The position numbers and the translations under genes were made by a program. From positions 7,688,001 to 7,752,000 of the forward strand of contig NW_026889761.1 of NCBI RefSeq assembly GCF_033153115.1: a DNA stretch of 64,000 bases, written 5' to 3'. Below are positions 9,627-18,166 of this stretch, in pieces; position 1 is the stretch's first letter, and each line of letters opens with the position of its first letter. The notes under the pieces were generated by a model. It was not told where the DNA came from and searched no databases. It saw only the letters and a list, made by a program, of their open reading frames with translations. This DNA comes from Saccostrea echinata. Lineage: Eukaryota.

Positions 9627-10345
9627 AAGATATTAACTGTAGTGAAAGAGAAACTTCAAGAATACTGTGCAACAATATATTCGAGAAGTAGTGTAAATCA
9701 GATGTAGATATTTAAAAATTCCAAGGAACTTCTGGAAAATTTGAAATCACAAGATTTTACCAAAATCAACAGCTTAAAAACTTACGACTTTTAAACTTTA
9801 TACACAACCATTCCCCACAATAAATTAAAGTCCAGGCTTTTTGATATCATTGACAGCTGCTTTTTCAATAAAAATGGAACTCGTAAATTTACTTACCTTG
9901 TCATTGGTCATTTGCAAAATTATTTTGTTAAAAAACATTCTGATTGTAATACAAGTACTCTGAAGTTGATATTAGTAGATGCTTGAGTTTTTGATTGACA
10001 ATATCTATGTGGTTTTTAGAGACGAGGTCCCGGGGCCACGAACGTTTTATTTTACTCAACTCAAATCAGAGTTTAACTCTAAGTTTTTTACTCACCTGAG
10101 TTACGACTCAAAAAAGTGTGCCACGAAAGTTAAAGCAACTCAACTCCGTTGAGTAACAAAACTCAAATTATTTTGTATGATGTAAGTGGCCTTGGCAATG
10201 TAAATAAAAGAAAAATAAATAATGAAAAACATAATCTCTTTGTTTTCCTTTTGAATCTACCTCTATAATGCCAATTCACATAATTGTGACGTAATATTTT
10301 TTGTTTTGATGACGTTGCAAACTACGGAACGGCTGTCTCACCAAT

Positions 10346-11542
10346 ATGGAAGAAATGGATGTACTGTATGATATCATAGTTGAAAATCCTTCCAAAATTA
10401 ACGAAACAATATTCAAGGCTGTCGAAACTCCCCTCGCAGCATCCACTCCAAAAAGGAAACCTTCCTGGAGCGACTTAGACAGAGTGTTTTAATTGAATTT
10501 GTTTCAAAAAATGAGCAGAAACTTTTTGGAAAGTTTAAAGGACCGGGGAGGGGAAAAGTAGAGAGAGAAGCTGCCTGGGAGGATGTAGCAAGAGCTGTAA
10601 ACGAGTATGTTTATTTCAAAGAATTATTTATAAATTTTCTTACCTTGATAATTTATTTAATACATTTTAAAAATTCTATAAAGTTTAAAATTATTCTTGC
10701 TTGTATCTTGTTAAGTTAAATTATAGATTTATTCAATTTATGAGCTTTTTATTTAGTTAATAACACGTCATCTGCGAAGACTTTGAACAGACTATATATG
10801 ATGCACAAATAGAAAGTGCTCATAAAAGAAAAAAAGAAAATAAATGTCAGGTCCATTTTCCATATAAACTTAGCATAGTGATAATATATCATACAGCAAT
10901 GGCTTAGCATAAAAGATTGTACTATTTATAACCCGGGCTACCCTTCCCCTTTTTAAAGATTTTCACTGAAACAAGGATTAAAGCGCAAAGAAATTTTTTC
11001 AGTTAATTTAATTTACTTTTCATATTGATATTTTTTAAATGTGAAAAAACTTGCAAATTACTTATGTGTGTCATGGAGGTGGATTTGATGAGCGCACATG
11101 CAACCCCCCCCCCCCCTCCATCTAGGAAGTCTTCATAAAACTTATCATATTCATTCCATACTGAAGCGTTGCAAGTATTGAGCTAGATTTCTTTTCACAA
11201 CTTATTTCCGGTTTATTTCTGTTACAGAGTAGGTATTTACTTTCGGACAGGGAAGGAGGCATCAAAGCAGTATGCCAATTTGAAAGCCAGAGGTACACAT
11301 CTAAAAATCATTTACTTTTTGTTATTCTGACTATATTCTGAATACAAAGCACATTTCAGTTAAAAAATCAAACCTTGTCTTTTATCTTTTTAGCATCGTT
11401 TCATAATATATATGTACATGTATCGGTAACAGGCGCGGATCCAGGAATTTTTTCCAGGGTGGGTCAATCCCCAATCAAAAAATTTCCAACCTAGAAATGT
11501 CTTGACAAGCCAAAAAACAAAAAAAAACAAAAAAAAAAAAAA

Positions 11543-11573
<31 letters not shown>

Positions 11574-13877: not shown

Positions 13878-13924
<47 letters not shown>

Positions 13925-15598
13925 AACAAAAAACAAAAACAAAAAAAGAAAAAAAAAACAAACAAAATAAAAACATTCTATGGTTAAAATATTATATTAA
14001 TTTATACTTCTAATTGTACTGCAAAACCTCTTAATGTGCGATATCACACGAGTCGTTTTCATATAAAAATAGCGAAAAAGAGAAATTTGGCAACCAATGA
14101 AAACGATATAATACGACTTAATTACGATACTTTATTTTCACCTGCACATATAAAGCAATTGAAAAATGAATTAGTTAGGAAAAACAACATGTACATATAA
14201 TTACAAAAGATTATATTCACCTGTACATTTAATGCATAATAGCCCTTTCTACACACATATTCGGCTTCGTTCTGGGCAGGACATCGAATTCGAATTAATG
14301 TGCCGTCTACACAGCATACCACATTAGGAAAACCTTTTATAAAATTAAACACATAAAATGAAAAAACCAATAACAAACGTATCAGTGTTCACATATTTAC
14401 TAATCATCAGTATATTTCAAAATATTTTAAAGTCGATTTTTTTTTGGGGGGGGGGGGGTGATAATAACCTTTTATCTTTTCTTTTAATCATTAATTAAAA
14501 TATTTATTCCATATTTGGCCAGAATGAAAAATTACATAAATTATTGGAAAAGACATTAGAAAGAAAAAATTATCAATAATTCATGCGAAAATCACGAGTC
14601 AGCTACATGAACACAAGTAAACAAGATAGCACCTGACTTAAATAACATTATATGTATATTTAACCCCCCTCCCACCCCCCCACCCCCAATGTATATATAT
14701 TGCAGATCTTTGTTTTAATACATGTAAGGCTATTTTTTTTTTCATTTAAGCAAGTGTAATATAATAATCCATTCATTCCCATAACAATTAATTGCTAAAA
14801 TTGAAATATGTCATGAAACACAGCTAGGATTAACTTCCGAAAATATAGAAATTTGGGTAATTTCGCGCACGATACTTTTGTGCAGCTGATTCTGAGTTAT
14901 CTCCCTTATAAAATGGAATAAGTTCATGGAATATGATTTGAGTGCGACATTTCAGATAGTTTTGGTTTTTTATTATACTTTTTTCTTATAAAGAATGTGG
15001 AGGCTGCTTTGCGGAACAGACTATTAAAAGTCATTGAAAGTGTGTTTATTGGATGTTTTATGACGTAACATTAGGCCTAGCGTTCGGGCACTGTACATCG
15101 CCAGGTAAGTAACTGCCAAGTACGCAGTTGTTTTAGACTTGTCATGTCAATACAGATAATCAAATCTTGGACATGTATACCTGCTAAACTGTAGAATTTA
15201 GTGCGTATCTCTGCAGTTTCAGGAATTGATGGGAAGCGAATGAACTGTCTGGCTAGCGAACAGAGGAGGGAGGTAACTCCTCGCACAGCTCGTCCTGTAG
15301 TCGACTTGGAAATAGCCAGCGAGTCCCCAATAAGTTGGTAAAACGCACCCGTAGCAAAAAAACGAAGTGCTAGTAACACCTGTAACAATGGTGGCAGAGC
15401 CGAACTCCTCTTCGTCGGATGTTCCAGTTGGTTTTCAATGAGACTACATATGAAGAAAATAGTGGCGGATCTAAACCTGTATCTCATAAAAATTTCTTCC
15501 TCTGTCAACGATTCCAGTGGATTTGATCTATCCTGAAGTCGACGTGGTATCCTCTCTTGCCTAATAATGTTTTGCATTATAATGCGCCTGGCAGCCAT
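12710..15598 (-). CDS. Harbinger (HARBI1-like) DDE transposase, 4 exons, 344 aa, intact
   Basis: Exons 15598-15181, 14333-14221, 13456-13345 and 13101-12710 total 1035 nt with GT-AG junctions and no stops. Catalytic motifs VDGT, GDSGY and RVVIEQAFGILKRRF; also WPGSVHDSRVF and an HTH region LALRFFATGAFYQLIGD. Confidence 0.93.
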
Positions 15599-18166
15599 TT
15601 TTGTGTTGAGTTGACTTCTAAGACAGCTACCTAGCAATCTCAGATATTTTGAGAAAAACTCAAGAAAAAACTCTATTTGAGTAAGACTCAAGTTTCGTGG
15701 CACACTTAATTGAGTTCAACTCAGCGCTTTGAGAAAAATTCTCAGATTTGAGTAAAATACAGCCCTTGAGTTCGACTCAAGACGTTCGTGGCCCCGGGGC
15801 CAGGTCTTCCAATAATCTATTGGAATTCACATGGGTACCAATATCGCCCCGTTATTAGCAGGCCTTTTTTGTATTCATATGAAGCAGAATTTGTCCAAAA
15901 TCTTATACATGAAAAGAAGAAAACACTTGCTGTGGCCTTCAACTCGACATTTAGATATATCGACGACGTATTGTCAATAAACAATGGTTATTTCGAATCT
16001 TTGTCGATACGATATATCCCGGTGAGCTTGAGATAAAAGATACCACAGAGTCTGTTTCATATTTGGATATTTTACTTGAAAAAGACGTTAATGGTAATCT
16101 AACAACCAAGTTTTATGATAAACGTGATGACTTTAACTTTTCAATCGTCAACTTCCGTTTCTTATGCAGCAATATACCTTCATCACCTGCATACGGGGTT
16201 TATATCTCTCAGTTGATTCGATACGCAAGAGCACGCTCTACGTATGTACAATTTCTAAAACGAGATAAATTATTGACAAACAAGTTGATGAAACAAGAAT
16301 ATCAGCAGTCTCGTTAAAAGTCATCATTTCCTAAGTTCTATGGTCGATACAATGACCTTGTCAGCAATTACAATTTATCATCGAGTCAAATGCTGACTAC
16401 CTTTTTTCATTCTAATTGTTAGGCCATTATTTACACACTGAATTGTCGACGGATTTTTCCATTATTTCCCGATTATGACAAGGAGCACACGGCGGGTGTG
16501 ACCGGTAGGCAGGGGATGCTCACTCCTCCATGGCACCTGATCCCACCTCTGATGTTTGGAGGTCCGTGTTTGCTCTGCTCCTATTTTGTATTGTATAATG
16601 GACTTTTGAGCTTGAATACTGTTCGTTATCTCCATATATTTCATACTAATAGATCATATCATTCAACGGTGCGCTTGAATTTTAATTTCTCGAAGATCTT
16701 TAAAAAAAATCAATGTATTAAAGAACAATTACAAATCAATGAATGACTTGGCAATGGTTTAATAAAGGGTTTCAAATTTTATTATAGAGTCATGATAATT
16801 TAAAATTCAAATCAAAACAGTATGACACAAAATAATTCGAATAATTATTGGATGGGAATGATTTTTTTTTCCGGATCTCTCCCCCTCTCTCCTTACTTAT
16901 TTGTTTTTGTTTTTGTTTTTTTTTTCGGGGGGGGGGAGGGGGTGTACGCACTTGCGTATTTACATATCTAGGCTGCCTTCGGGCGAAACGGAATCGGTCG
17001 AAGAAGAATAATCATTTTCATGTACTTTCCTTGATTGGCTCAAACATGTAGAGCCTATTCTTAAATGAAAGATCTACCTCTGGTATATCAACATCTCCGT
17101 TCCCTAAAATTTGGCATTTTTTAAGATAATCGAGAGCACTATATTATATTAATACTACTTATACTATATTTATATTATTACTACTATAAGTTTCTGATGT
17201 TGATTGTCTCTTATGACGTCACAAAAAGGGGAAGTAACTCAATTGATAAACGTCATTTTTAGCGATTTTTAAACAGGTAAATATAGAAAACAACGAGGTT
17301 TAAAATTTTACGAATATTGTGATTCCCTCTTTTTAACTATTATTTACAATTGCAACATATATCATTTACAAGTGTTTCTATTTCCTATGAATTTGACCTT
17401 TAATGAGGTTCTGATTTTTTTATCATAAAAATAGAAATTAAATATATAGAGTGATCAAATACCAACACCTCTGTCAGTAGTCTTACTGTTTATTTGAATA
17501 GAGCTTACAATGCTGAAATATGTCAAGAATCTTTGGAAACGTTTAACCGATTAATCGGGCGGAGCGTCTAGCAGTTAACCAACTGGCAATTCTGTATTCA
17601 ATTGCCATCCCTAATATAAATATATAGATTATATAGCCTATTTATAATCCCTATATAATCTATACAAACGCAAACGGTTTATACCATTACATTTCTAATG
17701 TAATTTGGGGCCGTATTTACCGGATGATCAGTGCGAGTGCATGGATAGTTGCGACGTCACAGACGACGCCTCAAATGATGTTGTTAACAATGGTTGCAAC
17801 GGTTGGAGCCAGTTCTGATTCCAAAGAGGCAAAAACGTAAGGCCAGCTTATCGCCGGAATTCTATCCAAATATTTCGACAGGAAATGATGACTTATACTC
17901 TACGAAAGGAAAACACGGAAGTTAAAACTTGTAGTCTGGACAATTTTTAATTTTTCATTTTATAACTAAAAAAGGTGTCGTCAGGCAGCCTTCAATGTTC
18001 TTTTTATTGACTTAAAACTATATAATAAATCAATTATGGACTCTTTTAATGGTGAATATGGTTTGATACACACCAGAAAAGATCAATATTCACCACCAAA
18101 AATCGAGTCCATGCTTGTATGATATTTTTCATGACCTTGCTACGAAATCATATGTAAAAACTCCAC

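What the first reader, a model, noticed from the sequence alone, without database searches (positions are those of the whole stretch)
10018..15809. Harbinger inserted at a site matching the zebrafish Harbinger3 target consensus, inside a retroelement RT
Seen: the reconstructed empty site is AGAGAC-CAG-GTCTTC, supported by the uninterrupted copy at ~58752. Known: zebrafish Harbinger3_DR prefers AAACACCWGGTCTTT with a CWG TSD (consensus quoted from memory). The match is 12/15. Inference: long target-sequence specificity may be shared between a fish and a putative mollusc Harbinger. Because the site is formed by RT codons (G-D-Q-V-F) of a multicopy PLE, that retroelement could be a recurrent landing pad, i.e. 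a transposon targeting another transposon.
Basis: partly seen in the sequence, partly recalled or inferred. Interest (0 to 1): 0.7.

Follow-up and report, generated by a model that had tools for sequence, protein, structure and literature searches.

The report
Oyster transposon's hotspot inside a retrotransposon
An oyster cut-and-paste jumping gene and three sister families land again and again on one spot of a very common retrotransposon, likely only because that spot spells their preferred 9-11-letter landing word (the core of the zebrafish relative's word) in thousands of copies, not because they seek out the retrotransposon.

Summary
Real element, mostly ordinary explanation. Window 10027-15800 is a CWG-type (NuwaI) PIF/Harbinger, close to Pacific-oyster Harbinger-4_CGi. 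The literature already puts it in the same group as zebrafish Harbinger3_DR. It splits the G-D-Q-V-F codons of a Naiad Penelope-like element.

The 12/15 match holds for this copy only: the Naiad family reads 11/15. The copy at 58752 does not show the claimed site.

Across 141 insertions of four sister families the shared preference is (A)SAY-CWG-RTS(T); the outer AA/TT of the fish 15-mer is absent. The Naiad RT site is a true hotspot, 9 of 141 events against 0.07% of CWG sites. But it supplies at least 24% of all perfect core sites, and a motif model predicts 4-19%. So there is no sign of targeting beyond motif times copy number.

More novel: 18 of 74 two-ended copies have CAG on one side and CTG on the other, against about 4% expected by mutation. 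This is what an element carrying its donor-site 3-nt overhang into the new site would leave. My two look-ups in the scan's earlier notes found no report of either point.

The parts
10027..15800 (.). NuwaI-type PIF/Harbinger transposon, 5774 bp (family A here)
   Evidence: TIR pair, two genes tail-to-tail; 22 insertion events of the family in the own genome
10027..10044 (+). Left TIR, 18 bp, C>T at base 2
15783..15800 (-). Right TIR, 18 bp
10024..10026 (+). Left TSD copy, reads GAG (CAG expected; likely later mutation)
   Evidence: paralog empty sites read CAG
15801..15803 (+). Right TSD copy CAG
10018..10023 (+). Left half of target (AGAGAC; family word GGAGAC)
15804..15809 (+). Right half of target (GTCTTC)
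12710..15598 (-). DDE transposase gene, exons 15598-15181, 14333-14221, 13456-13345, 13101-12710; open 344-aa frame with D, D, E motifs
   Evidence: Pfam DDE_Tnp_4 on exons 2-4; GT/AG borders; no internal stop; 97% to P0001
10346..12557 (+). Myb/SANT helper gene; 1-bp deletion near 10480 frameshifts exon 1 in this copy; later exons and end point inferred by eye
   Evidence: Myb_DNA-bind_5 E 0.0015, below its curated cut-off; deletion absent in 3 of 3 other copies compared
8780..10026 (+). Naiad Penelope-like element, upstream part (5'-truncated, decayed; holds an inverted 3'-end piece at 8982-9099)
   Evidence: 90-94% to an open-frame copy L217 that has CxC and DKA motifs (criteria PMC8557442 section 6)
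15801..16644 (+). Naiad downstream part: rest of RT and the 3' end, which carries the second hotspot word GGCAC-CTG-ATCCC (empty here)
58652..59228 (+).

Best explanation
This is a CWG-type (NuwaI) Harbinger transposon inserted in the RT codons of a Naiad retrotransposon, at a spot that it and two sister families have hit repeatedly, likely because the spot is a perfect copy of their short palindromic target word and exists in thousands of copies. Shown: the element, its genes, the CWG duplication, a target preference of about (A)SAY-CWG-RTS(T) in four families, nine insertions at this Naiad position, and that this position supplies at least 24% of the genome's perfect 9-bp cores. Inferred: the transposase-Myb complex reads the target DNA directly, as reported for Harbinger3_DR and mPing, and nothing about the Naiad beyond this word attracts it. 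Also inferred, and less sure: the excised element keeps 3-nt overhangs cut from the donor duplication and sometimes ligates them at the new site, which would explain the CAG/CTG-mismatched duplications.
For: Family A half-sites, 28 of 35 junctions: C at -1 21/28, A at -2 20/28, C/G at -3 21/28. Four families pooled, 176 half-sites with both Naiad hotspots excluded: relative entropy 0.63, 0.20, 0.31, 0.15 bits at -1 to -4; A at -4 92/176; A at -5 and -6 at background, p 0.25 and 0.42. Genome counts: 3585 exact Naiad 16-mers among 15,230 SACCWGGTS sites. Hotspot 9 of 141 events against a motif-model share of 3.7, 8.8, 19.2 and 12.8% for widths 3, 4, 6, 8; upper-tail p 0.08-1. Other high-copy repeats are reused the same way: Naiad 3' word 9 of 141, and an unrelated oyster repeat hit twice by family A in opposite orientations. 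Catalytic segments 82/92 identical by eye to NuwaI-2_CGig = Harbinger-4_CGi.
Against: The background is 60 stretches of 10 kb from 14 of 425 contigs, with only 10 intact Naiad RT sites, so the expected share is wide (bootstrap 1-30%). The Naiad 3' site is hit somewhat more than predicted: 9/141 against 2.5-3.9%, p 0.008-0.10, post hoc and uncorrected. About 90 of 346 family-D ends were examined. Some D-family MITE copies in Naiads could have been copied along with the Naiad; the independent minimum at the RT site is 6. One of the two family-A events (C1) has lost 6 bp at the junction and its right end.
Confidence: 0.85

Rival explanations
1. The Harbingers target Naiad elements as such (longer sequence, DNA shape, chromatin or a tethering protein), i.e. 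a transposon that specialises on another transposon.
For: 18 of 141 events (13%) fall on two Naiad positions while Naiads hold 4.8% of CWG sites. The 3' site is mildly above the motif prediction.
Against: 123 of 141 events are elsewhere. The RT site is at or below the motif prediction. Only 1-2 events lie at other Naiad positions. Unrelated repeats show the same reuse.
Confidence: 0.07
2. The match is chance around a 3-bp CWG preference, and the repeated Naiad hits are copies of one composite spread by the Naiad or by duplication.
For: Two left-end flanks in family A are identical duplicates. The left TSD is damaged and the match rests on a private base.
Against: The preference persists with Naiad-site events removed. 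The RT site holds three different families and both orientations in families A and D. Mean match to the fish 15-mer is 9.8 for family A against 6.6 for background CWG sites, p 2e-6.
Confidence: 0.03
3. The full 15-bp fish specificity is conserved in the oyster family and only looks short because old flanks have decayed.
For: Family A shows A at -4 and -5 in 11/23 each (p 0.09, 0.11); copies are 2-8% diverged.
Against: Inner positions keep a strong signal despite the same decay, while -5 and -6 are at background in 176 half-sites. No two-ended event of 75 scored above 12/15.
Confidence: 0.05

Closest known systems
Harbinger-4_CGi = NuwaI-2_CGig of Crassostrea gigas (Han et al. 2015, PMC4482050; supplement rows and alignment read)
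   Same: CWG TSD, about 19-bp TIR, 342-aa DDE_Tnp_4 transposase plus Myb_DNA-bind_5 gene, about 5 kb; catalytic segments 82/92 identical by eye.
   Different: Different oyster genus, 5774 bp. The passages read report only the 3-bp TSD, no extended preference or reused sites; the Repbase entry and figure logos were not visible.
Harbinger3_DR = NuwaI-2_DRer of zebrafish (consensus from PMC3016246 passage; group; Sinzelle 2008 itself not held)
   Same: CWG TSD, two genes; target positions -1 to -4 agree (C, A, C/G, A).
   Different: Catalytic segments only 41/92 identical by eye. The oyster preference is shorter and looser: T often replaces C at -1 and A at -2, and there is no signal at -5/-6.
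mPing/Pong and maize PIF (PMC2836001 and PMC4561436, passages)
   Same: Extended 9-bp preference; a model of staggered cleavage through the TSDs, which implies TSD-derived overhangs.
   Different: TWA target. The passages read do not report non-matching TSDs arising at new insertion sites; they were engineered at donor sites.
Naiad Penelope-like elements (Craig et al. 2021, PMC8557442; passages and section 6)
   Same: CxC and DKA motifs, C-terminal RT with no endonuclease after it, 5' truncation, inverted 3' piece, very high copy number in oysters.
   Different: The N-terminal GIY-YIG domain was not seen in the truncated copies examined; use as a Harbinger hotspot is not mentioned in what I read.

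Membership tests
NuwaI group of PHIS (PIF/Harbinger) | CWG target-site duplication confirmed by paralogous empty sites | tested here: met
   28 of 34 family-A junctions read CWG; empty paralogs carry a single CWG. This copy's left TSD is GAG.
NuwaI group of PHIS (PIF/Harbinger) | DDE_Tnp_4 transposase | tested here: met
   344 aa, open frame
NuwaI group of PHIS (PIF/Harbinger) | Second gene with Myb/SANT domain | tested here: met
   Myb_DNA-bind_5 E 0.0015 on a partial, frameshifted exon, below the curated cut-off; frame intact in copy L077
NuwaI group of PHIS (PIF/Harbinger) | TIR 12-61 bp, usually starting GGG | tested here: inconclusive
   18-bp TIR is in range but starts GC; 'usually' is the paper's word
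NuwaI group of PHIS (PIF/Harbinger) | Clusters with named NuwaI transposases | tested here: inconclusive
   No named NuwaI sequence could be put in the tree (mollusc clade of 22 rows, 97/96). By-eye identity to printed NuwaI-2_CGig segments 82/92.
Harbinger3_DR-type 15-bp target specificity | Preference at all six positions on each side | tested here: not met
   -1 to -4 met, -5 and -6 at background
Target-specific transposon that homes to another element | Insertions into the host element exceed motif times copy number, or dominate | tested here: not met
   9/141 against 3.7-19% predicted; 123/141 outside the two hotspots
Naiad PLE (host repeat) | CxC motif and DKA motif upstream of RT | tested here: met
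   L217 open frame, 90-94% to the window copy
Naiad PLE (host repeat) | N-terminal GIY-YIG endonuclease | not tested
   Only 5'-truncated copies were fetched; no endonuclease follows the RT stop in L217

The most novel reading that the evidence does not exclude
CWG Harbingers transpose with the donor's 3-nt duplication still attached as 5' overhangs and ligate it into the new site, so a quarter of insertions carry a CAG/CTG-mismatched 'duplication'. This would be a genomic record of the element-side chemistry of PIF/Harbinger transposition, read here thanks to the Naiad and other repeat hotspots, where the pre-insertion base is known.
Probability: 0.5. Interest if true: 0.62.

Novelty: new member of a known kind. 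Interest (0 to 1): 0.4.

Why it matters
The finding as posed adds three things. It adds a mollusc data point that the fish Harbinger's target core has been kept across transposases about 45% identical in their catalytic segments. It gives a clean worked case in which apparent 'transposon targeting a transposon' is explained by motif times copy number. And it shows that one retroelement family supplies about a quarter of the best targets in this genome and hits RT codons, which could act as a sink for Harbingers. The mismatched duplications matter more if confirmed: they make the untested element-side half of the published staggered-TSD-cleavage model directly testable, and they would warn TSD-based annotation pipelines that about 25% of genuine copies fail an exact-TSD filter.

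Tried and rejected
Uninterrupted copy at 58752 as support for the site: rejected, it reads CAT.

Seven of 31 exact TIR-core matches were not element ends: four belong to an unrelated oyster repeat with a TIR-like word, three are other sequence. They were dropped.

Seven of 35 family-A junctions were left out of the first logo: one deleted, one duplicate, one damaged, four non-CWG from two old copies. Four events were merged as duplicates before counting 141.

Recombination between copies as the cause of CAG/CTG mismatch: excluded in the two cases where both flanks come from one repeat site, untested in the rest. Fold-back duplication: flanks beyond the TSD are no more palindromic in mismatched copies, 2.0 against 1.9 of 6. 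Mutation with age: mismatched MITEs are not older, 4.5% against 6.6%, p 0.054. TIR-to-TIR template switching is disfavoured but not excluded: short 15/51 against long 3/23, p 0.15.

A tree with Harbinger3_DR and HARBI1 could not be made because neither sequence was identifiable in tool output.

Literature searches for oyster Harbinger target preference or nesting and for mismatched TSDs found nothing describing either. The library lacks Sinzelle 2008; Kapitonov and Jurka 2004 and Repbase reports were not seen. The piggyBac analogy is recalled, not sourced.
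Full report
1. Observation. The element runs 10027-15800 (5774 bp) between 18-bp TIRs; the left TIR has C>T at base 2 and the left TSD reads GAG while the right reads CAG. The rebuilt site AGAGAC-CAG-GTCTTC matches AAACACCWGGTCTTT at 12/15. That consensus is correctly recalled (PMC3016246 passage), and 0.17% of background CWG sites score as high. The copy near 58752 reads GGAGAC-CAT-GTCTAC, so it fixes only the position. Better paralogs show the family word is GGAGAC-CAG-GTCTTC, 11/15, coding G-D-Q-V-F.

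2. The transposon. The minus strand carries four exons with GT/AG borders giving an open 344-aa DDE_Tnp_4 transposase. The plus strand carries a Myb/SANT gene with a private 1-bp deletion near 10480, so this copy would need a helper in trans (inference). The closest named proteins are rock-oyster 'putative nuclease HARBI1' entries, 97% and about 80% identical; the transposase sits in a mollusc clade. Han et al. 2015 define NuwaI by a CWG TSD (section 7). Their Table S5 lists HARBINGER3_DR as NuwaI-2_DRer and four Pacific-oyster Harbingers in the same group. The printed catalytic segments of NuwaI-2_CGig (Harbinger-4_CGi) are 82/92 identical to the window's by eye, and those of Harbinger3_DR 41/92. 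So a fish-oyster link through CWG is already in print.

3. The host repeat. The interrupted sequence is 90-94% identical to an open-frame copy, L217, which has the CxC and DKA motifs and no endonuclease after the RT. These are Naiad diagnostics (PMC8557442 section 6). A protein search gave 41,275 first-look candidates. Naiads cover 4.4% of a 600-kb sample (60 stretches from 14 of 425 contigs).

4. Target preference. Family A gave 22 events. In 28 of 35 junctions C is at -1 in 21, A at -2 in 20 and C/G at -3 in 21. To gain power I found three sister families from a transposase search and collected their ends: B, 32 of 33 exact TIR matches; C, 15 of 15; D, about 90 of 346. After merging duplicates there were 141 events: A 22, B 24, C 10, D 85. 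All four use CWG. With both Naiad hotspots removed, 176 half-sites give Y at -1 (158), W at -2 (149), S at -3 (116) and A at -4 (92), with A at -5 and -6 at background. The preference is therefore about (A)SAY-CWG-RTS(T), 9-11 bp. It is the inner part of the fish word, strongest in family A and weak in family C (mean 15-mer match 9.8, 9.0, 6.3, 8.6 for A-D against 6.6 background). Extended preference is a known superfamily trait, 9 bp in plants and 15 bp in vertebrates (PMC2836001 passage).

5. Landing pad. The Naiad RT position holds 9 of 141 events: A 2, B 2, D 5. The second family-A case (G000:C1:17.58 Mb) is in opposite orientation, with a 6-bp junction loss and no right end. D-family MITEs also occur in both orientations, so at least 6 events are independent. 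This is about 90-fold over the site's 0.072% share of CWG sites. But 3585 exact Naiad words make up at least 24% of the 15,230 SACCWGGTS sites in the genome, and a motif trained on the other events predicts 3.7-19% for this position (bootstrap 1-30%). The observed 6.4% is not in excess. A second Naiad position in the 3' end holds 9 of 141 (one assignment weak), mildly above the 2.5-3.9% predicted (p 0.008-0.10, post hoc). An unrelated oyster repeat and the elements' own TSD junctions are reused too. The hotspot is real; homing to a retrotransposon is not needed.

6. Mismatched duplications. Of 74 two-ended events with CWG on both sides, 18 read CAG on one side and CTG on the other: 15 of 51 short and 3 of 23 long elements, in all four families. 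A-T exchange inside the MITE bodies is 2% per site, about 4% per pair (p 1e-9 for the short elements), and mismatched copies are not older. Single changes at the outer C or G number 6 over two positions, and the element borders are clean in the 15 short cases, one of them possibly nested. Where paralogs fix the pre-insertion base, 15 events match it at both ends, 2 carry the other base at one end and none at both. Gilbert et al. 2015 model PIF/Harbinger excision as staggered cleavage through the TSDs (passages). That geometry implies, by my inference, that the excised element keeps 3-nt 5' overhangs. If these are sometimes ligated rather than trimmed, a donor of the other orientation yields a central mismatch that is fixed either way. 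Fully random resolution would give 25% mismatched and 12.5% doubly converted; the first fits (24%), the second was not seen (0 of 17, chance about 0.10). In family D, 11 of 12 mismatches are CAG...CTG, unexplained, though a donor already in that state would propagate it. Template switching between the TIRs remains a rival.

7. Literature. Seen: passages of PMC3016246, PMC2836001 and PMC4561436; passages and section 6 of PMC8557442; passages, section 7 and supplement rows of PMC4482050 (figures and logos not visible). Ten searches gave no description of the oyster preference, the Naiad hotspots or naturally mismatched CWG duplications. Sinzelle 2008 was not held, and Repbase reports, which may state target preferences, could not be seen. 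Two look-ups in the scan's own notes showed no earlier report of these points.

8. Verdict. A new member of a known kind. Interest 0.4, carried mostly by the mismatched-TSD lead.

Noticed in passing
G000, 74 two-ended insertions of families A-D (e.g. L347, L295, L095): 18 have CAG on one side and CTG on the other; candidate trace of donor overhang carry-over. Family D is biased 11 of 12 to CAG...CTG.
   Followed up: partly
window 16530-16550 (empty here); filled in L048, L082, L215, L274, L297, L329, L338, L347: Second Naiad hotspot in the 3' end, 9 of 141 events, slightly above motif prediction.
   Followed up: partly
G000:C9:30.10 Mb and C54:60.12 Mb (L006/L007, L025/L059); also L262, L295: One position of an unidentified high-copy oyster repeat is hit repeatedly, in both orientations. 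The same repeat carries a word that mimics the family-A TIR core right next to the site (L003, L004, L016).
   Followed up: partly
L199, L254, L270, L294, L304, L337: Harbinger copies inserted directly at the TSD junction of another copy, giving tandem MITEs; three of these sit at the Naiad RT site.
   Followed up: no
window 21980-24610, 35035-37629, 49857-52538 (minus strand), homologous fragments at 1-2022 and 4223-5645: Tandem cluster of intronless ORFs that read as Toll-like receptors by eye (LRR, transmembrane, TIR-like tail); the Harbinger-Naiad composite lies inside it.
   Followed up: no
L222 and L328: Families B and D each inserted at the same position of another repeat.
   Followed up: no
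L026/L027/L028 (G000:C57:8.22-8.27 Mb) and L085: Older relatives with non-CWG flanks (TAG/AAG-like); could be decayed or a TWA-type subfamily.
   Followed up: no
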